From Candidatus Gastranaerophilales bacterium (GTDB lineage Bacteria > Cyanobacteriota > Vampirovibrionia > Gastranaerophilales > Gastranaerophilaceae): a DNA stretch of 64,000 nt. Position 1 is the first letter of the stretch. The number at the start of each line of letters is the position of its first letter. The translations under genes were made by a program, and so were the position numbers. Positions 147 through 51,078 of this stretch are shown in pieces. Location: the NCBI GenBank assembly GCA_900769645.1, contig CAAGHI010000063.1, forward strand, positions 83,379 through 147,378, given 5' to 3'. The notes below the pieces were generated by a model, which saw nothing but the letters and a program-made list of their open reading frames with translations, had not been told where the DNA came from and did not search any database.

Positions 147-227
147 ATGCAAGAAGATTTGAGAAGAGTGCTCGGGGGGGGGGCAAGCGTCACGGGGTAC
201 GTGGAAATTCCGCAGCTAGGAAGCTAG
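147..227 (+). other. Leader sORF (MQEDLRRVLGGGASVTGYVEIPQLGS) that reads through the G10 tract, out of frame with the pilin domain
   Basis: RBS AAAGGAAG 5-6 nt upstream of ATG 147; TAG at 225-227; frame 0, while the pilin is in frame 2. Confidence 0.4.
174..183 (+). repeat. Homopolymeric G10 tract, candidate slipped-strand phase-variation site
   Basis: 10 consecutive G in a low-GC genome; paralogous tracts at 9218 and 19805 sit at the same position relative to pilin-like genes. Confidence 0.8.
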
Positions 228-262
228 GAAGTGAAGCAGCTAAGCAAAATTGTTATTCTGAA

Positions 263-1036
263 ATGGAACAGCTGCTTTCAGTCGTCATTCCGAACGCTAG
301 CGAAGGAATCCAGCTTATTGATAAACAAAACAAATCACAAGGAGAAAGAAAGGATAACTTAACCGAAATGGTCTTTTCACTTAAACACGCCGCATTTACA
401 TTGGCTGAGGTTTTAATTACTCTCGGCATTATCGGTGTTGTTGCAGCTTTGACAATTCCTAATATTATTAAACACTATCAAAACAAAGTCACTGTTACCA
501 AACTTCAAAAAGCTTATTCAATTTTAAACCAAGCTTTTCGTCAATCTGAAAATGATAACGGGTCTTCTGAATTTTGGCAAGAAACCCCAGAAATTTCAGC
601 TCAGGACTATTTTGAAAAATACTGGAAACCTTACTTAAAAGAACCAAAACTTTGTCAAACATATCAAGAATGCGGTTATGTAAGCTGGAAACCATATATA
701 GCACTGAATGGTTCGTCTGTTGCTATGTCGCTAGATTCTGCAAGGGTAAAAATTAAAACAATTGATGATGTTTTTTATTTATTTACAGAGGCGACGACAA
801 ATTCTGAAGGAAAACTTGTTCCATTTAGAAATGTCTATATTGATATAAATGGTGCTAAAGCTCCAAATAAATTTGGGGAAGATGTTTTTATTTTTAATAG
901 AGTTATAGGAAAAGGTATAATGCCTGAATGCTATTATTGCTCATACAATTCATTGACCGCTAATTGTAATCGAAAATCTAATGGAGCATATTGCGCTGCT
1001 CGAATTATGGCTGATGGGTGGAAGATTAAGTATTAA
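263..1036 (+). CDS. Pilin-like protein with prepilin-type N-terminal cleavage/methylation domain (KHAA|FTLAEVLITLGIIGVVAALTIPN), paralog 1. Effective start uncertain: ATG 147 plus a +1 G, ATG 263, or ATG 368
   Basis: F+1, E+5 and a hydrophobic helix are typical of type IV pilin or pseudopilin; the Cys-rich C-terminal DING-K-PN motif is shared with 9198 and 19857. Confidence 0.6.
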   Translation: MEQLLSVVIPNASEGIQLIDKQNKSQGERKDNLTEMVFSLKHAAFTLAEVLITLGIIGVVAALTIPNIIKHYQNKVTVTKLQKAYSILNQAFRQSENDNGSSEFWQETPEISAQDYFEKYWKPYLKEPKLCQTYQECGYVSWKPYIALNGSSVAMSLDSARVKIKTIDDVFYLFTEATTNSEGKLVPFRNVYIDINGAKAPNKFGEDVFIFNRVIGKGIMPECYYCSYNSLTANCNRKSNGAYCAARIMADGWKIKY

Positions 1037-8605: not shown

Positions 8606-9085
8606 ATGAAAATTTTACCGATTAATAATTATAACGCTAACTATCAGTACAGCCAGATTAATAATGGCATGACGGCTCCTGTTTTTACTGCAAAGAAAAT
8701 TATTCCGACAAAAGAGCAACATAACGAGTTAAGAGTTTTTCTTCACCATATTTATGAGTATAAGAAGGGGTTGAGAAGCTTAATTTTGACTACAGAAAAG
8801 AAGTCTAATCAACCTTATATAACTCAAAAATTAGAGCGAGAAAAAATCCCGTATCTTATTACGCCGGCTGGTGAAAAGTCCATAAACGTGTTCTTTGGAA
8901 ACGAGGATTGCATAAAAGTTGTTTCGACATTTGATAAAAAGCTTAATAAATTGTCACCGGAAAAAGATTTTATGCTCGGAATTATGCTTGGCTATGACAA
9001 GATTTTGCAATGTAAGAGATATATGCAAAGGTTAGGGAAGGTGACTGCTCAGGCTGCTAAAAATATAAATGAAAAACTGTCTTGA
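8606..9085 (+). CDS. Hypothetical protein
   Basis: 159 aa ORF with a TTGACA-N17-TAACAT promoter upstream; no recognisable motif. Confidence 0.4.
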   Translation: MKILPINNYNANYQYSQINNGMTAPVFTAKKIIPTKEQHNELRVFLHHIYEYKKGLRSLILTTEKKSNQPYITQKLEREKIPYLITPAGEKSINVFFGNEDCIKVVSTFDKKLNKLSPEKDFMLGIMLGYDKILQCKRYMQRLGKVTAQAAKNINEKLS

Positions 9086-9110
9086 AAAGTTTCTGAAAAT
9101 GTGCTAAAAT
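9082..9110 (+). promoter_or_regulatory. sigma70-like promoter for pilin-like locus 2: -35 TTGAAA, 17 nt spacer, -10 TAAAAT, then GAG
   Basis: Same hexamers and spacing as locus 1. Confidence 0.55.
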
Positions 9111-9142
9111 GAGCATATCAGAATAGAAAAGGAGTCAAGATT

Positions 9143-9250
9143 ATGAGAAGAGATTGTTTTATGCAAGAATTGCTAAAAATGAAAAGCCACCTAATTTGTG
9201 GGGGTAAAGTGCTCGTCGGGGGGGGGGCAATCGTCACGAGGAACATGTAA
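9143..9250 (+). other. Leader sORF (MRRDCFMQELLKMKSHLICGGKVLVGGGAIVTRNM) reading through the G10 tract, out of frame with the pilin domain
   Basis: RBS AAAAGGAG 8 nt before ATG 9143; TAA at 9248-9250. Confidence 0.4.
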
Positions 9251-9917
9251 TAGTAGGTCGGCATTTACCTTGGTCGAAGTTCTCATCACCCTCGGCATAA
9301 TCGGGGTTGTGGCAGCATTGACTCTCCCAGCACTTATTCAGGGTTACAAAAAGCAAGAAGCTAGCACTAGATTAAAAAAGTTTTATAGTACGATGACTCA
9401 AGCGATTGCGACTGCAGAAGCAGACTCAGGTACTAAGGCTTATGATTGGGACGCATTGTTGTGGCCTACTTATGATCCTGCAAATTCTTATAAGCTAACC
9501 TCAGTTTATTATAATAAGTATATTGCTCCATATATAAAGACTTTGAAGGTTGAAGATGGGGTTTATGACCCGAAAAATAATATTAATAGTAAAATGAAAA
9601 TCTATTTTTCAGATGGTTCTACTGCAGAGCTTAATGATGGCTTATGTGTAGATGTTTATTATGATATAAATGGACCTAAGGAACCAAATCAGACAGGAAA
9701 AGATATATTTTTGTTTTATATAGCAACAGCAAAGTCACATGCCAACAATCGTCAGCATGAACTTTATCAAAATCAGTCTTTTTCAGTTGGTTATCTTCCA
9801 CTTTATAACACTGAAACAAAAGCTCTAAATGCTTGTAAAACAAATGCTTCTTTTTGTTCAACATTGTTAATGTATCATAATTTTGAATTTCCCAAAAATT
9901 ATCCTTATAAGTTATGA
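9198..9917 (+). CDS. Pilin-like protein with prepilin-type N-terminal domain (RSA|FTLVEVLITLGIIGVVAALTLP), paralog 2. Only a GTG lies in frame upstream; ATG 9143 is fused by a -1 G
   Basis: No ATG in the pilin frame between the tract and the FTLVEV motif; shares the DINGPKEPN motif with paralog 1. Confidence 0.6.
   Translation: MGVKCSSGGGQSSRGTCNSRSAFTLVEVLITLGIIGVVAALTLPALIQGYKKQEASTRLKKFYSTMTQAIATAEADSGTKAYDWDALLWPTYDPANSYKLTSVYYNKYIAPYIKTLKVEDGVYDPKNNINSKMKIYFSDGSTAELNDGLCVDVYYDINGPKEPNQTGKDIFLFYIATAKSHANNRQHELYQNQSFSVGYLPLYNTETKALNACKTNASFCSTLLMYHNFEFPKNYPYKL
9218..9227 (+). repeat. Homopolymeric G10 tract, candidate phase-variation site
   Basis: Flanks conserved with locus 1: AGTGCTCG..G10..CAA(G/T)CGTCACG. 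Confidence 0.8.
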
Positions 9918-10035
9918 GCAACGGCTGCTTGATAAATTATTTGTAATTTGTAAAATTCCTGATTAACATTATGTAAAGATATTGGTAATTAATTTTTTAT
10001 CGGTTATAATTATTTTATTATATAGGAAGATGATT

Positions 10036-10830
10036 ATGCAGGATACTTTGGAAAGAAAACAGATAAAAAATATTGATTTCAATATCGATTTGGCGCAAAG
10101 CTTCGGTATTTACAAGAATAATGCAGAATTTGATTTGTTGGATTATGCAAGTTCTGTAAACATTTCTTGCGGTTTCCATGCCGGTGATCCGTTGACTATT
10201 CGCAACGCTTTATTAAAAGCTAAAGAAAAAAACGTTGTAGTCGGCGCTCATATCGGATTTGACGATATTCAAGGCTTTGGGTATCGTGATATGGATTTAG
10301 ATGAAGATGAAATTGAAGCACTTGTTGTTTATCAAGTTGGTGCATTAATGTCTTTTGCCAAGTCTATGCATTTGGAAATTGAGCATGTAAGACCACATGG
10401 TGCGATGTATAAAAGGTGCGCAGAAGATTTCGCGTTTGCTTGTTCTGTTGCAAAAGCTATTAAAAAATGTTCTGAGTGGCTTGTTTATTACGGTGCAACA
10501 GGTGAAATTACTGAAAAAACCGGAGAATTGATTAATATTCCGGTTGCACATGAAATTTGCTTAGAAAAAATGTATAATGTTGACGGAACAGTAAATTCTG
10601 TTGCTCGTGATAATGAAAATACTGATGTTGAAATTCAGAGATTGAAACAACTTTTGGCAACATCTCAGGTTTCAAATATCGAAGGCGGAAAAACTGTTGT
10701 GAAAGCTGATACAATACACTTTACAAACAGATTATCAAATTCTTATGATTTGATAAAACAGGCTCACAGAGTAATAACTCCTGTTCCTGTAAATTACAAA
10801 AACGCGTGTTTGTCAGGTTGGGTAGAATAG
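10036..10830 (+). CDS. pxpA: 5-oxoprolinase subunit A, LamB/YcsF family
   Basis: ISCGFHAGDP signature; ~265 aa; start chosen at ATG 10036, 6-7 nt after AGGAAG. Confidence 0.7.
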   Translation: MQDTLERKQIKNIDFNIDLAQSFGIYKNNAEFDLLDYASSVNISCGFHAGDPLTIRNALLKAKEKNVVVGAHIGFDDIQGFGYRDMDLDEDEIEALVVYQVGALMSFAKSMHLEIEHVRPHGAMYKRCAEDFAFACSVAKAIKKCSEWLVYYGATGEITEKTGELINIPVAHEICLEKMYNVDGTVNSVARDNENTDVEIQRLKQLLATSQVSNIEGGKTVVKADTIHFTNRLSNSYDLIKQAHRVITPVPVNYKNACLSGWVE

Positions 10831-19779: not shown

Positions 19780-19833
19780 ATGAAAAAATGTAATGAAATG
19801 TTTCGGGGGGGGGGCTCGGAGATACTAGATTAG
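19780..19833 (+). other. Leader sORF (MKKCNEMFRGGGSEILD) reading through the G10 tract, out of frame with the pilin domain
   Basis: Purine-rich RBS GAAAGAGAG before ATG 19780; TAG at 19831-19833. Confidence 0.4.
19805..19814 (+). repeat. Homopolymeric G10 tract, candidate phase-variation site
   Basis: Third G10 in the window, again 43 nt upstream of an A|FTLAEV motif. Confidence 0.8.
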
Positions 19834-21107: not shown

Positions 21108-21698
21108 ATGAGAGAATTGTTAGAAAAAGATAGAAAAATTACAGTAGTGCCGGCAGATTTTAAATGTGCGAATAAAGGGACTATAATTGATGTTGAACCG
21201 AGATATTTTACTGTTGAGTTGGAATATGAACCGCAAGGTATGATGCGTCATAATTACTGTGAGTTTTATACGCAAACTTCTCATGGAACTTTGTATTTTG
21301 ATTCTTTCCCTGAAACAATTGAGGGGAAAAAGGTTAAGATTGCAACTCCGGCAAAGCATAAATTTCTTCAAAGACGTCAGTACACTCGTATCAAATACGT
21401 TTATGATTTGGATTTGAAATGCGGAGATGATGTTAAAAAGGTTACAACTCTTGATGTTTCTGCAGGTGGTATGAAATTCCGCACGAATGACAATATCAAC
21501 ATTGAAGCAGAGTATTCAATTTCTTTGCCGTTGTCTGAAAAACAAACTGTTGACTGCAAATTTAGCCCGATAAGAATTGAAAAAAATGAAAACGGTGGAT
21601 ATACCGTTTCTGGAAGATTTGAGTATCATAACAGTATTGACAAGATGACTCTTACTCAGTTTTGTACAAAAAGAAGTATCGAGATAAAAAATAAATAG
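21108..21698 (+). CDS. PilZ-domain c-di-GMP receptor (YcgR-like architecture)
   Basis: RxxxR (RRQYTR) and DxSxGG (DVSAGGM) motifs ~22 aa apart; N-terminal ~85 aa domain. Confidence 0.65.
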   Translation: MRELLEKDRKITVVPADFKCANKGTIIDVEPRYFTVELEYEPQGMMRHNYCEFYTQTSHGTLYFDSFPETIEGKKVKIATPAKHKFLQRRQYTRIKYVYDLDLKCGDDVKKVTTLDVSAGGMKFRTNDNINIEAEYSISLPLSEKQTVDCKFSPIRIEKNENGGYTVSGRFEYHNSIDKMTLTQFCTKRSIEIKNK

Positions 21699-25138: not shown

Positions 25139-27094
25139 CTATTCGCTAAGCTTCAAAACCTCGTAAATATCCATCTTTTTGGCTTTCCCACGAATTGTAA
25201 CATCTGCAATCTTGATTACATCAACGATATCGGCAACGCAAGAATATGTTGAACTGCTGATAAGCATATTTGTTTTGTAAACCTTGTTGTAGCTTTCAAT
25301 ACGGCTTGCAAGGTTTACCATATCCCCGATAACGGTGTATTCAAGACGTTTTTCGGAGCCAATGTTTCCGACAAACGCTTCTCCTGTGTTAATACCAATA
25401 CCGATTTCGATTTTTGGTTTGCCTTCTGCAAGCCATTTGTCTTGAAGCTGATCTACTTTTTTAAGCATATCACAAGCACATCTGACTGCATTTTGCGGGT
25501 GATTGATATCCTGAATAGGTTCCCCAAAAATCGCCATAACCGCATCTCCGATAAATTTGTTGATTACGCCATTATATTTTGTGATAATTGGTTCCACCTC
25601 AGAAAAATATTCGTTCAAAATTACAGAAACTTCTTCTGCGGTCATCTTTTCACTCATACTTGTAAATCCTCTGATATCGGCAAAAAGAACTGTTACGTTT
25701 GCTTTTTTACCACCGAGTTTGATGTCATCGATATTTTGAACAACGTTTTTCATAATATCTTGCGAAAGATATTTCCCCATTGCATTTTTGATTTTTTCTT
25801 TATTTCTGCCTTCCAGAATAAATCTGTATGAGTATCCAAAAATCATTGTGCTTAACTGAACTGCAAGCGGTGTAATTACAAGTGGTACGACGTTGTTGTT
25901 GAAACAGATTATACAGAAGATAAAGTATAATATTGAAATCCCGATTAATGTGAACAGTGATGGCAAAAATGCCATAAATCTAATGATAGCGAAGGTTATA
26001 GCTGATAATAGAACAATTGTTAAAATGTTTACAAGTCCGTTGAATTCTGTCATAAACTGGTTGTTTAAGAAGTTATCAAGGATTGTTGCCTGAATATCCA
26101 CCCCAGGGTGTTTTGTGGCGGTTACGGTTTTCAAAACGTCCTCGACAGCAAGCGCATTTGCGCCTACAAATATAATTTTGTCGTCAAATTCTTTTGGCGA
26201 AATTATTGGCTTTTTACCTTGTTTTATGAGTCTGTCAGAGTTTATTATGTCGATTGCGGAGTAGGTTTTGTGAGTGTATTCGCTGTTCGGTAGAAATTTG
26301 CAGAATTTTATTCTATGTCTGATGTCGCCGTTTGTGTTGAATACAGGGATTTTTAACCCAGTTTTGTCAACAAAAAGATATTTGTTTGTTAGGGTTAATT
26401 TGTTGGTTTTATTTGCCATCATATAGGCTTTTAGAGCCAGTGACGGGTAATAATTGTCGTTATAACTGATTAAGTCTGTGGCATCTCGTAAAACTCCATC
26501 GACTGAATTTAGTGTTAAATTCACGGAGCCAATATTTTCTTGTGCGTCAAAATAAGCTTTAGGGAACATCGTTAAACTGTTATAACTGCTGTATCTTGAA
26601 TTGTTTTTGGTTCTTTTGTCGGCAATATCGATAGAGAACTTATGTTGAAAAGCTTCGTCGTAAGTTGTGCCGAGTTCAGGGTTTTCGTAAAGTGCCGGAA
26701 GCGCCATATAGCCCCCGATGTAGTTGTCGGAATTTTTTACGACATCAAAGAAATAATTATCAGAGCTTGGTGGGTTGTTTTTGTCTAAGTTGCTTAAAAT
26801 TGAGTCAAAAACAACGACCTTTGCGTTTGTGTATTTGTTTAGGTAGTCAAAAACTTCTCCATACAAGGATCTTGCCCAAGGCCATCTGTAGCTGTCTATG
26901 GATTTGTTATCAATAATAATTAGTGATATCTCGTCAGAACCCTTCATTGTTGAGTCTGTGAGGTTTGTCATTGTGTCATAAATCGGACTTTCCCAAAGGT
27001 TTACTGATATAAATGCAATTATCAAAACCAAAAATATGTGTACAAAAATTGATTTTATAAAAAAAGTTTTTCCTTTAAAAATTTTCATATTCAA
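25139..27094 (-). CDS. Membrane adenylate/guanylate cyclase with a CHASE2 sensor domain
   Basis: Signal/TM, CHASE2-like extracytoplasmic domain, 3-4 TMs, class III cyclase domain (VTVLFADIRGFT…FIGDAVMAIFG). Confidence 0.7.
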   Translation of the reverse strand: MNMKIFKGKTFFIKSIFVHIFLVLIIAFISVNLWESPIYDTMTNLTDSTMKGSDEISLIIIDNKSIDSYRWPWARSLYGEVFDYLNKYTNAKVVVFDSILSNLDKNNPPSSDNYFFDVVKNSDNYIGGYMALPALYENPELGTTYDEAFQHKFSIDIADKRTKNNSRYSSYNSLTMFPKAYFDAQENIGSVNLTLNSVDGVLRDATDLISYNDNYYPSLALKAYMMANKTNKLTLTNKYLFVDKTGLKIPVFNTNGDIRHRIKFCKFLPNSEYTHKTYSAIDIINSDRLIKQGKKPIISPKEFDDKIIFVGANALAVEDVLKTVTATKHPGVDIQATILDNFLNNQFMTEFNGLVNILTIVLLSAITFAIIRFMAFLPSLFTLIGISILYFIFCIICFNNNVVPLVITPLAVQLSTMIFGYSYRFILEGRNKEKIKNAMGKYLSQDIMKNVVQNIDDIKLGGKKANVTVLFADIRGFTSMSEKMTAEEVSVILNEYFSEVEPIITKYNGVINKFIGDAVMAIFGEPIQDINHPQNAVRCACDMLKKVDQLQDKWLAEGKPKIEIGIGINTGEAFVGNIGSEKRLEYTVIGDMVNLASRIESYNKVYKTNMLISSSTYSCVADIVDVIKIADVTIRGKAKKMDIYEVLKLSE

Positions 27095-43940: not shown

Positions 43941-43947
43941 AGGGGGG
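43941..43947 (+). repeat. G7 homopolymer immediately upstream of the first recombinase's promoter
   Basis: GGGGGGG ~24 nt upstream of the extended -10 TGTATAAT (43973-43980). Confidence 0.6.
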
Positions 43948-44016
43948 GAAAATTTAGAGCAGCCGAATTTTTGTATAATATAAAAAAATTGTTAAAATTT
44001 ATTAAAGAGGGAAGAA

Positions 44017-44556
44017 ATGGGAACTGTAGAACCAATAAGAAATTTAGAAGATTTAAAAAAAGTCGAAAAAATATTATCTAAAAATCCGCGCGATTTATTA
44101 CTTTTTACAATTGGGACTAATTGTGGATTAAGAGTATCTGATATTTTAGCTCTTAATGTTGAAGATGTTAGGAATAAAAATTTTATTCAACTTATAGAAA
44201 AGAAAACAGGGAAATTTAAAAAATTTCCAATTAATTCAAAATTAAAGCCAATGTTTGAAGAATTTATAAAAAATCGAAAAGATGAAGAACCATTGTTTAC
44301 CACAAAGTTTCAAAATCGCCTAGGACGTGTAACTGCCTATTATACAATCAGAGAAGCTTGTAAAATTGCGAATTTAGATGAAAAATTTGGTACACATACA
44401 ATGAGAAAAACGTTTGGGTATCATCACTATAAAAAGTTCAAAGATGTAGCTCTTCTTCAAAAAATATTTAATCATTCAAGCCCAATGGTAACCCTACGAT
44501 ATATCGGGATTGAACAAGAACAAATAAACGAAAGCTATACTAATTTTATCCTCTAA
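44017..44556 (+). CDS. Small tyrosine site-specific recombinase, catalytic domain only (FimB/FimE-like size)
   Basis: GLRVSD (Arg I), HTMRKTF (HxxR), YHHY, LRYIG (Tyr nucleophile); 179 aa. Confidence 0.7.
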   Translation: MGTVEPIRNLEDLKKVEKILSKNPRDLLLFTIGTNCGLRVSDILALNVEDVRNKNFIQLIEKKTGKFKKFPINSKLKPMFEEFIKNRKDEEPLFTTKFQNRLGRVTAYYTIREACKIANLDEKFGTHTMRKTFGYHHYKKFKDVALLQKIFNHSSPMVTLRYIGIEQEQINESYTNFIL

Positions 44557-44570
44557 TTCCAAATTTTTTT

Positions 44571-44780
44571 ATTACATTATTACAAATTTGTAGAGAAACC
44601 ATATTTATAACTATAACCCAATTATAGTACAAATATTTTATTTTTAAAACTATATTAAAATTTGTAAATACATACATTTTCTTTGATGGCAAGCGTTGCC
44701 GCTACTCTCTTCTATACAAATTTGTAAAATTGTATAGAAAAAGTTCAGTTAGTGGATAAATCGGAGAGTAGAAATAATCA
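44571..44780. promoter_or_regulatory. Palindrome-rich spacer between the tandem recombinase genes: AAATTTGTA motif three times, nested inverted repeats CTACTCTC…GAGAGTAG and TCTATACAA…TTGTATAGA
   Basis: Palindrome TACAAATTTGTA at 44581-44592; direct copies at 44659 and 44718; 8 and 9 bp inverted repeats at 44702-44770. Confidence 0.4.
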
Positions 44781-45311
44781 GTGAACGTAATTTCGCCTAT
44801 AAAAAGTATAGAAGAAATCAATTTGATAAAGGATTTGTATAAGAAAAAGCAGCAAACCCCTGAACTTGCGATGTTTACGTTGGCTATAAATACCGGTATA
44901 GATTTGTCTGAACTTTTAAATTTAAAAGTTGAAGATGTAAAAAATAAATTTTATTTGCAAATTGAACCGGAAAAATCAATTCCTTTAGACGAGGACGTAA
45001 GAAAATTAATAGCCAATCTTTCAACAGGTAAGAAAAATTCTGATTTATTGTTTAGTAATAAAAAAGGTAAAAAGGTTGATCGAACAACCGCTTTTTATTC
45101 TTTTAAAAACATTTGTTCCGAATTAGGGTTGAGTGAAAAATATTCTGTTGCATCTTGGCGCAAAACATTTGCGTATCATTACTACAAAAAATATAAGGAT
45201 TTATCGTTTCTGATGTGGTTGTTTAATCAACGTTCAACAGAGCAAGCTTTGAATTTTATTGAAGAAAAAGAAGATATGAATTTGAGATTTAAAGAAGGGG
45301 TGGCACTATAA
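44781..45311 (+). CDS. Second small tyrosine-recombinase-like protein, a degenerate paralog
   Basis: ASWRKTFAYHYY aligns with HTMRKTFGYHHY but the box II His is replaced; GTG start 14 nt after GGAG. Confidence 0.5.
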   Translation: MNVISPIKSIEEINLIKDLYKKKQQTPELAMFTLAINTGIDLSELLNLKVEDVKNKFYLQIEPEKSIPLDEDVRKLIANLSTGKKNSDLLFSNKKGKKVDRTTAFYSFKNICSELGLSEKYSVASWRKTFAYHYYKKYKDLSFLMWLFNQRSTEQALNFIEEKEDMNLRFKEGVAL

Positions 45312-47597
45312 TTGGGTACATATTTTAGAAATTCTTATAATAATATTCCAAGGATAAAGTTTTCAATAATAGTTCCTATATATAATGTTGAAAAGTATTT
45401 GCCTCAATGTCTTGATAGCATTCTCTCTCAAACGTTAAAAGATTTTGAAGTTATTTGTGTAGATGACGGCTCTACGGATAATTCTTTATTAATTTTGCAA
45501 AGTTTTGCAGAAAAAGACTTTCGTGTAAATATTATTTCGCAAAGAAATCAAGGGGTTGGGATTGCGAGAAATAATGCCTTAAAAGAAGTTAAGGGGAAAT
45601 ATTTGCTATTTGTAGATCCTGATGATTGGATAGATACAAATGCTTTAGAATTATTGTGGAATAAAGTAGAAGCTACGGAAGCGTCTGTGCTTCAATTTGA
45701 TTATGCAATATTTAAAGATGGTTCGTTAAAACAAAAAAATATATATTCTTATAAGATTGCCAAAAAATTTGGATATGATTTAAAAGAAAAAGGGTATTTT
45801 AACTGGGAAGTATTTAAGAAACGGCTGTTTCGCCAACTAGGGCTTGCAGTTTGGAATCGAGTTTATTTAACAGATTTTGTAAAAGAAAATAATATTAAGT
45901 TTGCCTCTAGTAGAATTGGCGAAGACCATATATTTACAATAAAAGCTCTAATTTTAGCTCCTAAAATTTTTTATTTGAATAAATGCCTATATCATTACAG
46001 AAAACGAAAAGCTTCTGCGACCAATATGGCTTCAGATGCAAATTTTTCTGCATTTGAAAATGTACAATTAGTTGAAAATTTTTTAAAGGAAAAAGAATTA
46101 TTTGAATGTTTAAAAGAAGAGTTTAAGGAATATAAGATAGAAAATCTTGCACACCATTATTGTTGCGTTCCACAAGATAAAATTCAAATTTATATTGATT
46201 TATGCAAAAAAATTTTGTCGCAAGATGAGTTTGCACAGTTCCAAAAGCTGGCATGTAATGTTGAATTATCGACAAAAGAAAAAATCTTTTCATTAAAAAA
46301 CAGTAAATTAAACGGCATTAAATATAAAGTTCTTACGATTTTAGGCTATTCAATAAAATTGGGTAATAATCCGAGTAAATGCGATTATAGTTCGAATAAA
46401 AATATTAAGAACAGAAGAAAAAATATTTCATTTATTGGTTTGCCGATTTATAGTATTGAAGATTTTGGAAAAGTTCGAATTCAAAAGTTCTTTGGTGGAA
46501 TTTTCCTTTCAGAAAAGTATCGTTCCGACTCAAAAGAATGTAAGATTTTTAAATTGTTGTATATTCCTTTTCTCAAAAGAGTAGTTGAAAATGATGTTTG
46601 CAAGTACTACAGTATGGGAATTTTACTTTGTCAAAAACACTTGGCGCAGAGATTTTTTGAAAAATATTTAAAGAATGTTAAATCCAATTATGATGCAGTG
46701 TACATTTTACATGCAAATAGTGGAGAAATCTTTTTATTTTTCGCATATTTATTAAAATTACATTTAAAAAAGAATAAAATCAAAGATCCTTTATTTGTCA
46801 TTACAAAAAAATATCATATTGATATTTTGAAGATGTATTACCCAGAAGCAAACTACTTATTTATAGCGAATTTGAAATTAAAGACACAGAGTAATGTATG
46901 GAAAACTCCGGATTACAGGTGTTATATCCTGTTTCCCGGTGCTTATTTTAACAAAATTGAAAAGGATATAAAAAATTATGAAATAGGAAAAGTTCACTAT
47001 TTTAATAGAATGCTTGAAGATCTAAATATTTCAAAAGAAGAGTTGCAAGAAATTCAAACGGTGCATTTGAAAAATCCGGTTGAAAAAATCCAAACTATTA
47101 CTAATAAGACAAAGTTAAATGTTGATAAGTTTGTCATTGTCGCTCCTGAAGCTATAACTTGTGAAGGATTGTCAAAAGCATTTTGGGGGAAATTGGTTGG
47201 AAGATTAAAAGATAAAAATTTCGATATTTTTCTAAACATAACAAATCCTAAGAACATAATTGAAAACACAAAATATTGTGAGTTAAGTTTTGAAGAACTG
47301 TATATTTTAGGAGAAAAAGCTCAGGGTATTATTTCGCTAAGGAGTGGGCTTTCTGAATTTTTATTGCCGACAAAGGTTCCTAATATTGCAATTTATTCAA
47401 AATTTAAAAACAGAGGGGAAGAAAATACATTTTCTGTAGAAAAAGGTATTGAAAGCTTTTCAATGCGCAAACTTCCATTTGTAAATAAAGAAAAAATCTA
47501 CGAGATTAATGCAGAGCTTTATAAAAAGGAAGATGAGCTTGTGGACAAGGTGATGGATATATTGGAAAAAGCGATAGTATTTAAGGAGGAAAAATAA
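45312..47597 (+). CDS. Family 2 glycosyltransferase with a ~500 aa C-terminal extension
   Basis: FSIIVPIYNVEKYL…VICVDDGSTDNS GT2 signature; TTG start abutting the upstream stop. Confidence 0.65.
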   Translation: MGTYFRNSYNNIPRIKFSIIVPIYNVEKYLPQCLDSILSQTLKDFEVICVDDGSTDNSLLILQSFAEKDFRVNIISQRNQGVGIARNNALKEVKGKYLLFVDPDDWIDTNALELLWNKVEATEASVLQFDYAIFKDGSLKQKNIYSYKIAKKFGYDLKEKGYFNWEVFKKRLFRQLGLAVWNRVYLTDFVKENNIKFASSRIGEDHIFTIKALILAPKIFYLNKCLYHYRKRKASATNMASDANFSAFENVQLVENFLKEKELFECLKEEFKEYKIENLAHHYCCVPQDKIQIYIDLCKKILSQDEFAQFQKLACNVELSTKEKIFSLKNSKLNGIKYKVLTILGYSIKLGNNPSKCDYSSNKNIKNRRKNISFIGLPIYSIEDFGKVRIQKFFGGIFLSEKYRSDSKECKIFKLLYIPFLKRVVENDVCKYYSMGILLCQKHLAQRFFEKYLKNVKSNYDAVYILHANSGEIFLFFAYLLKLHLKKNKIKDPLFVITKKYHIDILKMYYPEANYLFIANLKLKTQSNVWKTPDYRCYILFPGAYFNKIEKDIKNYEIGKVHYFNRMLEDLNISKEELQEIQTVHLKNPVEKIQTITNKTKLNVDKFVIVAPEAITCEGLSKAFWGKLVGRLKDKNFDIFLNITNPKNIIENTKYCELSFEELYILGEKAQGIISLRSGLSEFLLPTKVPNIAIYSKFKNRGEENTFSVEKGIESFSMRKLPFVNKEKIYEINAELYKKEDELVDKVMDILEKAIVFKEEK

Positions 47598-47600
47598 AAA

Positions 47601-49100
47601 ATGAAAATTATCATTCAAGCTGGTGGTAAAGGAACAAGGTTAGAACACTTAACATATAATAGACCAAAATGTTTGGTGCCTGTACATAACAGACCGATGA
47701 TATTTCATCTTTTTAACAAGTATAAAGATGCTGAGTTTGTTGTAATTGGGGATTATAAATTTGATGTTTTAGAAAAATATCTTGCGACATTTGCAAAAGA
47801 TGTAAACTATAAAATCGTTCGAGCAACCGGAACCGGAAATATATGCGGAATAAAACAAGCACTTGAATTCATTTCAGATAACGAAAAATTTATGTTAATT
47901 TGGTCTGATTTGATTTTATCAGAAGAATTTAAGCCTGAAGAATTACCAACTGGCAATTATGTTGGAATTTTAGAAGGTCAAACTTGTTCTTGGAGCTTTA
48001 TTGACGGGAAATTGGATAAAGTCGCTTCTGACAAATTTGGTGTAGCAGGTTGTTTTGTATTTGAAAACAAATCTGCATTCAAAGATATACCATTATCAGG
48101 TTCTTTTACAACTTGGCTTAAAGAAAGTGGAATTCCTTTAAAGGCAATGAAAATGCCTGCTTGTCCGGAAGTCGGAACTTTGGAAGCAATTGATAACTTG
48201 AAGGATACTCAAAATCGTTGTCGCCCTTATAACAAAATGGAATTTACTGATGGCAAGGTTATAAAAACTGGTTTGACAGAAGAAGGTAAAAAACTGATTG
48301 ATAGAGAGGTCGTTTGGTATAAAAAAATGGTGGAATACGGATTTACATCAATTCCAAAAATCTATTCTTATGACCCTCTTACAATGGAAAAGATTGACGG
48401 TACAAATATTTTTCAGGCAAATTTAACTGATGAACAAAAAGCTAAAATTACTGATAATTTGATAGATTCTGTAAATAAAATGCACAGTTTTGAAACAAAA
48501 CTTTCTGATAAAGAGGACTTGATTAAAGAATACTATACCAAAACAATTGACAGATTGAATAGTATTAAATCTGCAATTCCGTTTGCTGATAGTGAGTATA
48601 TTACAATTAATGGAAAAACTTGCAAAAATCCGATTGTGTTTCAAAAACAATTTAAAGATGCTGTTGAAGAAAAATTACTTGATACAGTATTTTGTCCAAT
48701 CCATGGTGATTGTACTTTGACTAATACAATGGTTGATAAAAATAATAATATTTATTTTATTGATGCAAGAGGATATTTTGGTAAACAAGTTGTTTTAGGC
48801 GATATTCGTTACGATTGGGCAAAATTATATTACTCAATGTGTGGCAATTTCGACAGATTTAATGTTAAAGACTTTAGATTAAAAATTTCAGACAATGATG
48901 TCCTCTTTGAAATCAAATCTAATGGCTGGGAAGATTTAACCGAAAAAGTTTTGGCAAATATGAAAAATTGCAAAGTTAGAGATATTCAATTTATACACGC
49001 TATTATTTGGCTTTCTCTAGCAAGCCACTGTTGGGAAGATTACGACTCAATGTGCTTGGCATTTTATAACGGTATGTATTTAGTAAGTGATTTTATTTAA
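47601..49100 (+). CDS. Bifunctional sugar-phosphate nucleotidyltransferase (N-terminal) / APH-ChoK-family kinase (C-terminal)
   Basis: MKIIIQAGGKGTRL…NRPKCLVPV; HGDCTLTNTMVD…IYFIDARGYFG. Confidence 0.6.
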   Translation: MKIIIQAGGKGTRLEHLTYNRPKCLVPVHNRPMIFHLFNKYKDAEFVVIGDYKFDVLEKYLATFAKDVNYKIVRATGTGNICGIKQALEFISDNEKFMLIWSDLILSEEFKPEELPTGNYVGILEGQTCSWSFIDGKLDKVASDKFGVAGCFVFENKSAFKDIPLSGSFTTWLKESGIPLKAMKMPACPEVGTLEAIDNLKDTQNRCRPYNKMEFTDGKVIKTGLTEEGKKLIDREVVWYKKMVEYGFTSIPKIYSYDPLTMEKIDGTNIFQANLTDEQKAKITDNLIDSVNKMHSFETKLSDKEDLIKEYYTKTIDRLNSIKSAIPFADSEYITINGKTCKNPIVFQKQFKDAVEEKLLDTVFCPIHGDCTLTNTMVDKNNNIYFIDARGYFGKQVVLGDIRYDWAKLYYSMCGNFDRFNVKDFRLKISDNDVLFEIKSNGWEDLTEKVLANMKNCKVRDIQFIHAIIWLSLASHCWEDYDSMCLAFYNGMYLVSDFI

Positions 49101-49109
49101 GAGGTGCTT

Positions 49110-49496
49110 ATGCTTAAAGAAAAACAACAATTGAGAATATCTCCGCTTGGACATAGTTGGATTTTAGATTTTGACGGTACGCTTGTTGAACATAATGGCT
49201 ACAAGACAGGTGATGACAAGTTTTTACCAGGGGTAAAAGAGTTTTTGCAATCTATTCCTAAAGACGATTTTGTTTTGATTATGACCGCTAGAGAAAAAGA
49301 TGCTAAAGAAAAAACGGTCAAATTTTTGAATGAAAACGGGATTAGATTTAATGAAATTCTTTTTGAAATGCCAATGGGTGAAAGAATTTTGATAAATGAT
49401 GACAAACCGTCTGGGTTGAGATGTGCTTATGCAATAACTCCAACTAGAAATCAAGGGTTAGAAAATTTAGATGTAATTGTAGATGAAAACTTATAA
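49110..49496 (+). CDS. HAD-superfamily phosphatase
   Basis: ILDFDGTL motif I; ~129 aa; RBS AAGAGGTG. Confidence 0.5.
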   Translation: MLKEKQQLRISPLGHSWILDFDGTLVEHNGYKTGDDKFLPGVKEFLQSIPKDDFVLIMTAREKDAKEKTVKFLNENGIRFNEILFEMPMGERILINDDKPSGLRCAYAITPTRNQGLENLDVIVDENL

Positions 49497-49505
49497 GGAG
49501 CAATA

Positions 49506-50393
49506 ATGTTAATTATTAAAACAATGATTCATGAAACAATTTGGGGTGGAGATAGATTAACTTCATATTCAAATACTAATAGCAAAAAGATTGGACACTT
49601 ATATTCACTTATTTCAAATGGGGAACTGGAAAGTGAAATCTTGAATGGCGAATATAAAGGACAACTGTTCAGAAAATATTTTGACGATAACAAAGCAAAA
49701 TTTGGATTAGCAAAATATAAAGAATTACCATTTTTGTTGGCTTTGGTTGATGCTACAGATGATTTGAGTTTGCAAGTACACCCTGATGATGAAGTAGCGA
49801 AAGAACTTGAAAATGCAGATTTTGGTAAAAATGAATCTTGGTATTTTTTAGAAGTTCCAAAAAGTGGGAAAATTTATGATGGTTGCAAAGCCAAAAATTC
49901 TCAAGAATTGCGAGAAAAAGTTGCACAAGGCAAATACGATGATGTTATTGACTATTTGAATGTTGAAGTTGGAAGCTATGTTTATATAGAAGCTGGTACA
50001 ATGCACGCAATGTCAGCAGGAAGCCTTGTTTATGAGATTGAAGAAAATTGTAATGCAACTTATAGAGTTTATGATTTCGATAGAATTGACAAAGATGGCA
50101 AAAAACGCCCTCTTCAAACAGAAGCGGCTTTAAAATCAATTCATGTAGATAAAAAATCTGTTGCTCAAAAATATGATAGAGAAAAGGTTGAAAGATTATA
50201 TGCAACAAATCTTTTCACATATAAAAAAGAGTATACAAATAAATCAAATACAATCGAATGTTTAACAGTTTTGAATGGCAAATCTGAAGTGGAAGGTTTT
50301 ACTGTTCAAAAAGGAACAACCATTGTTTTGGAACCGAATGAAACAGTTAAGTTAAATGAGTCCGACTTTATTGTCGCAAGAGCGTTGGTGTAA
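49506..50393 (+). CDS. Type I phosphomannose-isomerase-family cupin isomerase
   Basis: ETIWGG…SLQVHPDD…GKNESWYF…HAMSAGS. Confidence 0.6.
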   Translation: MLIIKTMIHETIWGGDRLTSYSNTNSKKIGHLYSLISNGELESEILNGEYKGQLFRKYFDDNKAKFGLAKYKELPFLLALVDATDDLSLQVHPDDEVAKELENADFGKNESWYFLEVPKSGKIYDGCKAKNSQELREKVAQGKYDDVIDYLNVEVGSYVYIEAGTMHAMSAGSLVYEIEENCNATYRVYDFDRIDKDGKKRPLQTEAALKSIHVDKKSVAQKYDREKVERLYATNLFTYKKEYTNKSNTIECLTVLNGKSEVEGFTVQKGTTIVLEPNETVKLNESDFIVARALV

Positions 50394-50405
50394 GGAGGTA
50401 GTGAG

Positions 50406-51068
50406 TTGAGCATAGAATTATCAGCTTCAATGATGTGTGCAAATTATGCCTGCTTAAGAGATGAGGTGAAAAATCTTGAAGATGCAGGGATTGATATTTT
50501 TCATATAGATATAATGGACGGAAGTTTTGTTGATAACTTTGGAATGGGTTATCAGGACATGGCTTTTATCAAAAACAATACGAACAAACTTGTTGAGGCA
50601 CATTTGATGGTAAGAAAGCCATACAACTATTTGGATATTTTGTTTAACTTGGGCATTGATATTATTTATATTCACCCAGAAGTTGATCCTGACCCTGCGA
50701 CAACTATTGAAAAAATTCATCAACACGGAGCAATTGCTGGTATTGCGATTAATCCGGGGACTGCAATTTCTACAATAGAAGAATTGCTGAATACAGTGGA
50801 TAGAGTTCTTGTTTTGGGGGTGAACCCAGGACATGCCGGACGAAAATATCAACCCTATGTGGATAGAAAAATAGAACGTTTGTTGGAACTAAAAAGAATT
50901 TTTAATTTCGAAATAGAACTTGATGGAGCGGTGACACCAGAACGAATTGCTCAGTGGCAACCTCGTGGAGTGAAAAGTTTTGTCCTTGGTACAGCTACAT
51001 TGTTTAAAAAAGATAATACTTATAGAGATATAATTGATAAACTAAACAAAGTGTTGGTAACAAAATAA
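50406..51068 (+). CDS. Ribulose-phosphate 3-epimerase-family ketose-phosphate epimerase
   Basis: HIDIMDGSFVDNFGMG, HLMV, GVNPGHAG; TTG start 7 nt after AAGGAGG. Confidence 0.6.
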   Translation: MSIELSASMMCANYACLRDEVKNLEDAGIDIFHIDIMDGSFVDNFGMGYQDMAFIKNNTNKLVEAHLMVRKPYNYLDILFNLGIDIIYIHPEVDPDPATTIEKIHQHGAIAGIAINPGTAISTIEELLNTVDRVLVLGVNPGHAGRKYQPYVDRKIERLLELKRIFNFEIELDGAVTPERIAQWQPRGVKSFVLGTATLFKKDNTYRDIIDKLNKVLVTK

Positions 51069-51078
51069 GGAGTTATGT

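What the first reader, a model, noticed from the sequence alone, without database searches (positions are those of the whole stretch)
9082..9270. Pilin-like locus 2: same promoter, leader and G10 module; the pilin frame has no ATG downstream of the tract
Promoter TTGAAA-N17-TAAAAT, RBS AAAAGGAG, ATG 9143 (frame 2). This runs through G10 (9218-9227) to TAA at 9248-9250, 12 nt before the SAFTLVEV codons. The pilin frame (frame 0) has only a GTG at 9198 upstream of the tract and no start codon between tract and motif, so the pilin can only be made by translating through the tract. Loss of one G (G9) fuses ATG 9143 to the pilin and gives the leader …VLVGGGQSSRGTCNSRS|AFTLVEV. The switch requires the opposite direction of slippage from loci 1 and 3.
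Basis: partly seen in the sequence, partly recalled or inferred. Interest (0 to 1): 0.8.

Follow-up and report, generated by a model that had tools for sequence, protein, structure and literature searches.

The report
Poly-G on/off switch in pilin leader
A run of ten G's sits inside the disposable leader of a pilus-subunit gene of an uncultured gut bacterium (Gastranaerophilales, a non-photosynthetic relative of cyanobacteria). Its length differs between otherwise identical genomes. It therefore looks like a classic slip-strand on/off switch, caught here in the off state, and it belongs to a large pilin gene family not described before.

Summary
The window has exactly three G/C runs of 8 or more, all G10, each upstream of one of its three prepilin motifs (expected by chance 0.16).

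At locus 2, an SD-preceded ATG (9143) reads into G10 (9218-9227) and stops at TAA 9248. The pilin frame has no start codon after the tract. G9 or G12 would give a 257-aa prepilin.

The host is a gut Gastranaerophilales (Melainabacteria). Another assembly is identical to the window over 3,048 bp except that it has G11. Orthologous loci show G9 x3, G10 x20 and G11 x2.

Across 113 paralogue 5' ends from species-representative genomes, 43 carry a G or C run of 8-12 (mode 10). The pilin frame is open from tract to motif in 42 of 46 loci, against 1 of 46 for each other frame. Tract-less in-frame alleles and in-frame tract alleles also exist.

Best reading: slipped-strand phase variation in the cleaved leader, as in Neisseria pilC.

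One oddity remains. The consensus tract is in frame with the SD-ATG in only 1 of 40 species, so RNA-level slippage is not excluded.

Verdict: a new member of a known kind.

The parts
9082..9110 (+). Promoter-like site: -35 TTGAAA, 17-nt spacer, TG-extended -10 TAAAAT
   Evidence: 10 of 12 matches, TG present. Conserved in orthologous loci L005-L010 and L145. Locus 1 has the same layout at 88-116.
9127..9134 (+). Shine-Dalgarno sequence AAAAGGAG, 8 nt upstream of ATG 9143
   Evidence: Read directly from the sequence. The same SD-ATG arrangement is found in 40 tract-bearing paralogues.
9143..9217 (+). N-terminal part of the leader ORF (MRRDCFMQELLKMKSHLICGGKVLV), with in-frame ATGs at 9143, 9161 and 9179
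   Evidence: A homologous leader is in frame with the pilin in tract-less alleles L147, L148 and L150.
9198..9200 (+). GTG in the pilin frame. It is the only in-frame start at G10, has no SD, and is probably fortuitous.
   Evidence: It is out of frame in L145 (G11) and not fused to the pilin in architectures B and C.
9218..9227 (+). G10 homopolymer tract, the slippage site. G10 and G11 are OFF; G9 and G12 are ON for ATG 9143.
   Evidence: Length polymorphism: G11 in L145 with 0 mismatches over 3,048 bp; G9 to G11 in orthologues.
9228..9263 (+). C-terminal part of the leader in the pilin frame (QSSRGTCNSRSA), ending in Ala at position -1
   Evidence: Compared with the locus 1 module, the differences are synonymous in this frame: CGG/CGA, GGT/GGA, ACG/ACA, CGC/AGG and AGC/TCG (read).
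9248..9250 (+). TAA that ends the ATG 9143 reading frame when the tract is G10
9264..9917 (+). Mature pilin-like protein (217 aa, FTLVEVLITLGIIGVVAAL...) plus its stop codon; N_methyl motif and DUF6613 domain
   Evidence: Pfam PF07963 at 26.8 bits (cut-off 21.2) and PF20318 at 30.4 bits (cut-off 24.3). TIGR02532 at 22.3 bits (cut-off 16.3). AF2 model with pLDDT 90.4.
174..183 (+). G10 tract of paralogous locus 1. It shares the promoter, leader and tract module, but the pilin has its own ATG at 367.
19805..19814 (+). G10 tract of paralogous locus 3. ATG 19780 needs G11 or G8.

Best explanation
Locus 2 is a translational phase-variation (contingency) switch on a type IV pilin-like gene of a gut Gastranaerophilales bacterium.

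Proposed mechanism:
1. Transcription starts at the TTGAAA-N17-TAAAAT promoter.
2. Ribosomes start at the SD-preceded ATG 9143 and translate a long leader that contains the G tract.
3. Slipped-strand mispairing during DNA replication changes the tract length.
4. At G9 or G12 the leader is in frame and a 257-aa prepilin is made. Its 40-residue leader, including the Gly residues encoded by the tract, would be removed by prepilin peptidase at A|FTLVEV, so the tract never appears in the mature protein.
5. At G10 (this assembly) or G11, translation stops after 35 or 52 codons and no pilin is made.

What is shown: the anatomy; the tract-length polymorphism in an otherwise identical background; translation through the tract, inferred from frame statistics and tract-less alleles; and the family-wide association of tracts with pilin genes.

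What is inferred: replication slippage as the cause, heterogeneity within populations, cleavage of the long leader, and pilus function.
For: (1) Three G10 runs pair one-to-one with three prepilin motifs; 0.16 runs are expected by chance.

(2) In-silico frames: G9 or G12 fuses ATG 9143 to the pilin, and there is no start codon after the tract.

(3) L145 against the window: 3,048 columns, 0 mismatches, and one gap, which is the extra G.

(4) The orthologous pilin in 25 assemblies carries G9 x3, G10 x20 and G11 x2. A paralogue carries C9 x3 and C10 x10.

(5) In-frame alleles exist. L164 has G11 (MRKFNFRRAFGGGGNREVV...VA|FTLAEV), while the homologous leaders in L011 and L013 have G10 and are out of frame. 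L165-L170 have G10 in frame; 6 of the 24 contigs that carry this product were read.

(6) Tract-less alleles of the same leader are in frame from the SD-ATG to the pilin.

(7) In GTDB species representatives, 43 of 113 paralogue 5' ends have a coding-strand G or C run of 8-12 within 300 nt upstream, and 46 of the 67 such runs in 855 kb lie there. The pilin frame is open from tract to motif in 42 of 46 loci, against 1 and 1 of 46 for the other frames.

(8) A sharply modal tract length is expected for such tracts: C. jejuni has a mode of G9, with G8 gaining and G11 losing repeats (PMC3401435).

(9) A G tract in a cleaved signal-peptide region is an established design in gonococcal pilC (PMC5354566).

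(10) No RNA family matches the region, and the leader shows no unusual RNA structure (z = -0.56).
Against: - The ON length for this architecture (G9 or G12) was not seen in the three assemblies that have it (G10, G10, G11).
- Consensus tracts are in frame with the SD-ATG in only 1 of 40 species-representative loci (P = 2e-6 against a 1/3 expectation). In tract-less paralogues the figure is 43 of 51. Loci whose ON length is 10 are never at 10: they are at 9 or 11.
- At the orthologous locus, at most 1 of 25 assemblies is in frame (L008, which sits next to a scaffold gap).
- This ON-avoidance is stronger than I recall for classical contingency loci (own knowledge). It needs an extra assumption: either ON is costly in the bulk gut population, or expression is leaky.
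- No read-level heterogeneity could be examined.
- A 40-residue leader is long for a prepilin, although tract-less paralogues have leaders of up to 52 residues.
- No type IV pilus machinery genes were found among the window ORFs scanned.
Confidence: 0.7

Rival explanations
1. Programmed RNA-level recoding. The gene is kept out of frame on purpose, and the pilin is made at a low level in every cell. Either RNA polymerase stutters on G10/C10 and produces mRNAs one nucleotide longer or shorter, or tRNA-Gly/tRNA-Pro slips on the run. DNA length changes would then be a side effect.
For: - The out-of-frame arrangement is near-universal: 39 of 40 species representatives, 24-25 of 25 assemblies at this locus, and 13 of 13 at the C-tract paralogue.
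- Loci that would be ON at length 10 avoid 10.
- The mode of 10 holds regardless of which frame is needed.
- Transcriptional slippage that rescues an out-of-frame gene is documented for an A11 run in tssM (PMC4256274).
- SSRs have been proposed to cause non-standard decoding (PMC1088944, discussion).
Against: - Both directions are needed across loci: about 27 need +1 nt and about 12 need -1 nt, and lengths range from 8 to 12. There is no single programmed shift.
- In-frame tract alleles (L164, L165-L170) and tract-less in-frame alleles exist, so in-frame expression is tolerated.
- There is no stimulatory RNA structure at locus 2.
- Documented bacterial transcriptional slippage involves A/T runs; G/C runs form more stable hybrids (own knowledge).
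Confidence: 0.17
2. G10 is the fixed, functional state. Translation starts at GTG 9198 and gives a 22-residue poly-Gly leader (MGVKCSSGGGQSSRGTCNSRSA|F...), while the ATG 9143 ORF is an unrelated upstream peptide.
For: - GTG 9198 is in frame at G10 and yields an intact 239-aa ORF.
- That product is on record in public annotations (P0121).
- G10 is the commonest length.
Against: - No SD precedes GTG 9198.
- In L145 (G11) it is out of frame.
- In architectures B and C, which carry the same pilin at 95% identity or more, the equivalent GTG is not fused to the pilin at G10.
- Many family members have no start of any kind in the pilin frame at the observed tract length.
- Tract-less alleles use the SD-ATG.
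Confidence: 0.06
3. The ATG 9143 ORF is a regulatory upstream ORF (an attenuator or leader peptide). The tract encodes a Gly-Gly-Gly stalling or sensing motif, and the pilin is started independently.
For: At the consensus length, a short ORF ending 2-10 codons after the tract is found in nearly all loci.
Against: - There is no start codon between the tract and the pilin at locus 2 or at many paralogues.
- The pilin frame is specifically open across the spacer: 42 of 46 loci against 1 of 46 for each other frame.
- No terminator or anti-terminator structure was found.
- Both G and C tracts (Gly or Pro) are used.
Confidence: 0.04
4. An artefact or decay: homopolymer miscalls in the assembly, or a frameshifted pseudogene.
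For: - Homopolymers are error-prone in sequencing.
- Some contigs or scaffolds break near the tract: L002 ends 5 nt after it, and L008 has an N gap 11 nt after it.
Against: - The same G10 is found in about 20 independent assemblies made with different assemblers.
- No single miscall direction would put all loci in frame.
- The pilin bodies are intact and conserved across at least 40 species.
Confidence: 0.03

Closest known systems
Neisseria gonorrhoeae/meningitidis pilC (poly-G tract in the signal-peptide coding region; Jonsson 1991, as cited in PMC5354566 and PMC5953494)
   Same: A homopolymeric G tract of about 9 or more lies inside the part of the ORF that encodes a cleaved N-terminal signal. 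A change of one G switches a pilus protein on or off by frameshift. The mature protein is unaffected by the tract.
   Different: - In Neisseria the target is the PilC/PilY1-type tip adhesin with a Sec signal peptide. Here it is the pilin-like subunit itself, with a prepilin (class III) leader.
- Here the design is replicated across a large share of a big paralogue family and uses both G and C tracts.
- The host is an uncultured Gastranaerophilales, not a proteobacterial pathogen.
Campylobacter jejuni polyG/polyC contingency loci (PMC3401435)
   Same: A low-GC genome in which G/C runs of 8 or more are rare, concentrated in surface-structure genes and intragenic. There is a sharp modal length (9 there, 10 here) with variants one repeat longer or shorter between strains.
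   Different: - The C. jejuni targets are mainly glycosyltransferases and flagellar or capsule modification genes, not pilins.
- As I recall, the ON and OFF states are both common in genome sequences there (own knowledge). Here the consensus is almost always OFF.
Neisseria opa genes (CTCTT repeats in the signal-peptide region; PMC5354566)
   Same: A multi-copy family of surface proteins, each copy switched independently by a repeat inside the leader-coding region.
   Different: Pentanucleotide repeats rather than a homopolymer; outer-membrane adhesins rather than pilins.
Promoter-spacer homopolymer switches (Bordetella fim poly-C; meningococcal porA/opc) - own knowledge
   Same: A homopolymeric G/C tract controls a fimbrial or surface gene.
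   Different: Those tracts lie between or next to the -35 and -10 elements and tune transcription. Here the tract lies 108 nt downstream of the -10 and 75 nt inside an ORF.
Transcriptional slippage rescue of an out-of-frame gene (Citrobacter rodentium tssM, A11; PMC4256274)
   Same: A gene is kept out of frame in the genome, a homopolymer precedes the stop codon, and both frames are potentially needed.
   Different: That case uses an A run with a fixed length and a fixed direction. Here the runs are G or C, the lengths vary and both directions are needed. RNA heterogeneity was not tested.

Membership tests
Type IV pilin / pseudopilin (prepilin-type N-terminal cleavage/methylation domain) | Class III signal motif: small residue (G or A) at -1, F at +1, E at +5 | tested here: met
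   The sequence reads A|FTLVE. PF07963 scores 26.8 bits (cut-off 21.2) and TIGR02532 scores 22.3 bits (cut-off 16.3). F, T, L and E are invariant in 68 homologues.
Type IV pilin / pseudopilin (prepilin-type N-terminal cleavage/methylation domain) | Long hydrophobic N-terminal alpha-helix followed by a globular alpha-beta domain | tested here: inconclusive
Type IV pilin / pseudopilin (prepilin-type N-terminal cleavage/methylation domain) | Short, basic leader (5-30 residues) cleaved by a prepilin peptidase | tested here: inconclusive
   The ON-phase leader would be 40 residues (27 or 33 from the internal ATGs). Tract-less paralogues mostly have leaders of 4-10 residues, but some reach 52. Cleavage was not tested.
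Type IV pilin / pseudopilin (prepilin-type N-terminal cleavage/methylation domain) | Prepilin peptidase and assembly ATPase/platform genes in the same genome | not tested
   None were found among the window ORFs scanned. pilB, pilC, pilD and pilT are reported in a Gastranaerophilales genome (PMC5877343).
Pfam DUF6613 | Match above the gathering score | tested here: met
   PF20318 scores 30.4 bits (cut-off 24.3) over residues 46-204. All listed homologues carry it.
SSR-mediated translational phase variation (contingency locus) | Homopolymer of about 8 or more inside the reading frame, so that a change of one repeat toggles between full-length and truncated product | tested here: met
   G10 lies 75 nt into the ATG 9143 ORF. 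G9 or G12 gives 257 aa; G10 gives 35 aa; G11 gives 52 aa.
SSR-mediated translational phase variation (contingency locus) | Tract-length polymorphism between closely related genomes with conserved flanks | tested here: met
   The window (G10) and L145 (G11) show 0 mismatches in 3,048 bp. Orthologues carry G9 to G11. In-frame and out-of-frame alleles of one leader both exist.
SSR-mediated translational phase variation (contingency locus) | Heterogeneity within a population and high, reversible switching rates | not testable with these tools
   Only consensus assemblies are available. Contig or scaffold breaks next to the tract (L002, L008) are only a weak hint.
SSR-mediated translational phase variation (contingency locus) | Both ON and OFF states represented among natural isolates | tested here: inconclusive
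   ON alleles exist (L164, L165-L170, possibly L008). But only 1 of 40 species-representative loci and none of the three assemblies of this architecture are ON.
Programmed transcriptional slippage / ribosomal frameshifting | Conserved out-of-frame arrangement with a fixed slippery site and a single required shift direction | tested here: not met
   The out-of-frame arrangement is conserved (39 of 40 loci). But tract lengths range from 8 to 12, and about 27 loci need +1 while about 12 need -1.
Programmed transcriptional slippage / ribosomal frameshifting | Stimulatory element (downstream RNA structure or a precisely spaced SD-like sequence) | tested here: not met
   The fold of 9120-9300 gives z = -0.56 against shuffles. 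There is no Rfam match.
Promoter-spacer homopolymer switch (Bordetella fim type) | Tract located between or immediately next to the -35 and -10 hexamers | tested here: not met
   The tract starts 108 nt downstream of the -10 and after the SD-ATG.

The most novel reading that the evidence does not exclude
The G10/C10 tracts may be obligatory recoding sites rather than classical ON/OFF switches, or as well as being switches. On this reading, Gastranaerophilales keep many pilin paralogues deliberately out of frame and express them at a low or stochastic level through RNA-polymerase stuttering or tRNA-Gly/tRNA-Pro slippage on the run. That would explain why the consensus length is in frame in only 1 of 40 species, and why loci whose in-frame length is 10 avoid the otherwise modal 10. 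It would be a lineage-wide use of G/C-run slippage for gene dosage, which to my knowledge has not been described.
Probability: 0.15. Interest if true: 0.85.

Novelty: new member of a known kind. Interest (0 to 1): 0.55.

Why it matters
Gastranaerophilales are widespread, uncultured gut relatives of cyanobacteria, and almost nothing is known about their surface biology.

This locus shows that they carry a large set of independently switchable pilin-like genes. About 38% of the sampled paralogue 5' ends, from dozens of species, have a G or C tract. This is a phase-variable repertoire of the kind so far documented mainly in mucosal pathogens such as Neisseria, Campylobacter and Haemophilus. It implies strong fluctuating selection on their pili, for example from antibodies, phages or the demands of colonisation.

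There is also a practical point. Gene callers mis-annotate these genes: one search shows products of 174, 215, 239, 257, 273 aa and more for the same gene.

Tract lengths could be read directly from existing metagenomes to follow ON/OFF dynamics in human cohorts. The almost universal OFF consensus is a concrete puzzle that can be tested.

Tried and rejected
- Known RNA element or riboswitch: no Rfam match at gathering scores across the window, nor at E up to 1 in 9000-9350.
- Structured RNA or frameshift stimulator: the fold of 9120-9300 is no better than shuffles (z = -0.56).
- Promoter-spacer switch: the tract is inside the ORF, not in the promoter.
- Intrinsic terminator or attenuator: none in 8900-10100.
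- Exact look-up of the 239-aa product in the contig index found nothing, although the cluster table holds it.
- The metagenome scan with the leader pattern returned only 5 contigs. They were still useful for the tract-less alleles.
- Foldseek against the PDB gave no significant match.
- Literature searches for Melainabacteria or Gastranaerophilales with phase variation, homopolymeric or pilin, and for DUF6613, found nothing relevant.
- A codon-substitution test on the architecture-B spacer, done by eye on L011 against L015, gave 2 synonymous and 6 non-synonymous changes. This is too weak to use, so the open-frame statistic was used instead.
- Type IV pilus machinery was not found among the window ORFs scanned.
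Full report
OBSERVATION

- -35 TTGAAA at 9082-9087, a 17-nt spacer, and a TG-extended -10 TAAAAT at 9105-9110.
- SD AAAAGGAG at 9127-9134.
- ATG 9143, with further in-frame ATGs at 9161 and 9179.
- G10 at 9218-9227.
- TAA at 9248-9250.
- GTG 9198 in the pilin frame.
- No ATG, GTG or TTG in the pilin frame between the tract and the A|FTLVEV codons (9261-9281).

The only slip is that TAA ends 7 nt, not 12, before the Ser codon.

Simulating tract lengths gives these products from ATG 9143:
- G10: a 35-aa peptide.
- G8 or G11: a 51- or 52-aa peptide.
- G9 or G12: a 257-aa prepilin, ...VLVGGGQSSRGTCNSRSA|FTLVEVLITLG...

Locus 1 (from ATG 147) and locus 3 (from ATG 19780) need +1 G, the opposite direction.

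The pattern is not chance. The window has exactly three G/C runs of 8 or more, all G10 and all on the + strand (0.16 hits expected from shuffles). It has exactly three prepilin motifs, and each has one run 36-211 nt upstream.

WHAT THE GENE IS

The ORF carries the prepilin N-terminal methylation motif: PF07963 at 26.8 bits against a cut-off of 21.2, and TIGR02532 at 22.3 against 16.3. It also carries DUF6613 (30.4 against 24.3).

The neighbours are flagellar genes (FliJ-like, hook-length-like, FlgE/F/G-like), a DUF2023 gene and a LamB/YcsF gene. No pilus machinery was found among the window ORFs scanned.

ORGANISM

Nearly all are titled Candidatus Gastranaerophilales or Melainabacteria. Exact-protein look-ups place the locus in human and animal gut metagenomes. 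A Gastranaerophilales genome is reported to encode pilA, pilB, pilC, pilD and pilT (PMC5877343).

IS THE TRACT VARIABLE?

Yes, between assemblies.
- L145 (ERZ28566613) has the same architecture as the window. It is identical over 3,048 aligned bases except for one extra G, giving G11.
- L002 (another sample) has G10.

Across 25 assemblies of the orthologous pilin (95% protein identity or more), the tract is G9 x3, G10 x20 and G11 x2.

The 5' region is mosaic. Three spacer architectures follow the tract:
- A, as in the window: 33 nt, ON at G9 or G12.
- B: 88 nt, ON at G11 or G8.
- C: 145 nt, containing a palindrome GCTACGCACGTAGC, ON at G11 or G8.

A paralogue with a C tract shows C9 x3 and C10 x10, and its called products imply C12 as well. 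Gene callers produce many different N-termini for the same gene, at 174, 215, 239, 257, 259, 273, 277 aa and more.

IS TRANSLATION MEANT TO PASS THROUGH THE TRACT?

Three lines of evidence say yes.

(i) In 46 tract-bearing loci (the window plus species representatives), the pilin frame is free of stop codons from the tract to the motif in 42. Each of the other two frames is open in only 1 of 46. The median distance is 92 nt.

(ii) Tract-less alleles of the same leader (L147, L148, L150) run in frame from the SD-ATG to the pilin: MKKDCIMQELLKMKSHLIGGWSGTLPELATRPQFRNADL...VA|FTLAEV.

(iii) In-frame tract alleles exist. L164 has G11 (MRKFNFRRAFGGGGNREVV...VA|FTLAEV), while its homologues L011 and L013 have G10 and are out of frame. 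L165-L170 have G10 in frame (MKVLNFKSCRGGGFYPHSA|FTLAEV); 24 contigs carry this product, and I read 6 of them.

In addition, the locus 1 and locus 2 modules differ by changes that are synonymous in the pilin frame: CGG/CGA, GGT/GGA, ACG/ACA, CGC/AGG and AGC/TCG.

FAMILY-WIDE PICTURE

Of 113 paralogue 5' ends in species-representative genomes, 43 (38%) have a coding-strand G or C run of 8 or more within 300 nt upstream. The lengths are G8 x1, G9 x5, G10 x18, G11 x6, G12 x2, C9 x1 and C10 x10. Of the 67 such runs in the 855 kb sampled, 46 lie there. A sharp mode with neighbours one repeat away is what is described for C. jejuni polyG tracts: mode G9, with G8 tending to insert and G11 to delete (PMC3401435).

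MECHANISM

The best-supported reading is slipped-strand phase variation acting on translation. The promoter and SD-ATG 9143 drive a long leader that contains the tract. The tract length sets the frame. The leader, including the Gly residues encoded by the tract, would be removed at A|F by prepilin peptidase, so tract changes in steps of three are harmless. The window is in an OFF phase.

This is the design of gonococcal pilC, which has a G tract in the signal-peptide region (PMC5354566), and of the opa genes. Here it is applied to the pilin-like subunit itself and multiplied across a gene family.

Replication slippage, heterogeneity within populations and leader cleavage are all inferred, not shown.

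THE UNEXPLAINED PART

In 40 tract-bearing loci that have a clear SD-ATG, the consensus length is in frame only once. The binomial probability is 2e-6 against a 1/3 expectation. As a control, the same procedure finds the best SD-ATG in frame in 43 of 51 tract-less paralogues.

Observed lengths, grouped by the length that would be ON:
- Most loci need 11 or 8. They are at 10 x22, 9 x2, 12 x2 and 11 x1.
- Loci that need 10 are at 9 x3 or 11 x3, and never at 10.
- Loci that need 9 or 12 are at 10 x5, 8 x1 and 11 x1.

A modal length of 10 alone therefore cannot explain the pattern: the ON length is avoided. The orthologous locus gives the same picture. At most 1 of 25 assemblies is in frame, and that one (L008) sits next to a scaffold gap.

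There are two ways to account for this. Either ON is costly in bulk gut populations, so ON cells are always a minority of the consensus. Or the out-of-frame state is the working state, and the pilin is made by RNA-polymerase or ribosome slippage on the run. The second reading has a precedent in tssM A11 (PMC4256274), and SSRs have been proposed to cause such decoding (PMC1088944).

Several points count against a strictly programmed shift:
- Both directions are needed (about 27 loci need +1, about 12 need -1), and tract lengths vary.
- In-frame alleles are tolerated.
- Locus 2 has no stimulatory structure (z = -0.56) and no Rfam match.

I give phase variation 0.70, recoding 0.17, a GTG 9198 start with a fixed G10 0.06, a regulatory upstream ORF 0.04, and artefact or pseudogene 0.03.

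COMPARISON AND NOVELTY

The mechanism is a known kind: SSR contingency loci, with pilC as the closest parallel. Four things appear to be new.
- The host lineage. Searches of the held library found nothing on phase variation in Melainabacteria or on DUF6613.
- The target: the prepilin leader of a DUF6613 pilin-like family.
- The scale: about 38% of the sampled paralogue 5' ends, across dozens of species, with both G and C tracts.
- The near-universal OFF consensus.

I classify it as a new member of a known kind, with interest 0.55. If the recoding reading were true (about 0.15), it would deserve much more.

Noticed in passing
window 44017-45311 (intergenic 44557-44780) and 45312-52146: Two short tyrosine-recombinase ORFs (179 and 176 aa, Pfam Phage_integrase) flank an intergenic region that holds an imperfect inverted repeat: arms 44562-44597 and 44710-44745, 36 nt, 81% complementary, 112 nt apart. 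They sit directly upstream of a low-GC (28-31%) cluster of glycosyltransferase, NTP-transferase and PMI genes. This is a candidate invertible-promoter switch for a surface polysaccharide locus.
   Followed up: partly
window 43942-43948: A G7 run, the only other G/C run of 7 or more in the window, lies in the intergenic region upstream of the first small recombinase gene.
   Followed up: no
window 184-391 (locus 1): Locus 1 has the same promoter, leader and G10 module as locus 2. In the pilin-equivalent frame its leader ends in a stop (VLGGGQASRGTWKFRS*). About 170 nt then separate it from a pilin that has its own SD and ATG at 367. The insert holds an imperfect palindrome, CATTCCGAACGCTAGCGAAGGAATC (286-310), present once in the window. 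Similar translated stretches appear upstream of other family members (P0146, P0149).
   Followed up: partly
L005-L010, L012, L014, L140, L146, L149 and many proteins (P0030, P0052, P0057, P0064, P0119): A recurrent nucleotide element, GGTGCTACGCACGTAGCC (palindrome GCTACG-CA-CGTAGC), translates as 'EGATHVA'. It is often preceded by a truncated copy of the pilin N-terminus (AFTLAEGATHVA...RRAA|FTLAEVLITLGI). It lies between the tract and the true N-terminus, or just upstream of the tract (L061, L128). It may be a recombination scar or a protein-binding site. Its function is unknown.
   Followed up: no
L026-L144 tract flanks: G tracts are flanked as (T)C-Gn-CA (C at 77% before the tract and 83% after it). 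C tracts are flanked as TG-Cn-G (G at 91% and 100%). These are the same 13-nt core in reverse complement. A longer module, GTGCTCG-G10-CAAT, is shared by window loci 1 and 2, architecture C, L061 and L128, which suggests that the tract module spreads by recombination between paralogues.
   Followed up: partly
orthologous locus in L005-L025, L145, L150 versus window 9228-9260: The same pilin body (95% identity or more) is preceded by three unrelated spacer architectures of 33, 88 and 145 nt. Two of these loci (L011, L013) also have different upstream genes. The 5' ends of these genes are therefore recombinationally mosaic.
   Followed up: partly
L151-L163 (paralogue with C tract): Three ATGs in three different frames precede the C tract: an SD-ATG (MYKINAQTC...), AAATGCGC and ACATGCCC. 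Any tract length is therefore in frame with one of them. Gene callers report MRKHAPPRR... at C9 and MPPPRR... at C10. Only the first ATG has an SD.
   Followed up: partly
L002 end, L008 930-945, L001 end: Contigs or scaffolds break close to the tract. L002 ends 5 nt after it, L008 has a 10-N gap 11 nt after it, and L001 ends 44 nt before it. This could reflect length heterogeneity in the reads or simply low coverage.
   Followed up: no
window 21108-21698 and 25139-27094: A PilZ-domain protein lies immediately downstream of pilin locus 3, and a CHASE2-adenylate/guanylate cyclase is nearby. This hints at a possible cyclic-nucleotide link to pilus or flagellar control.
   Followed up: no
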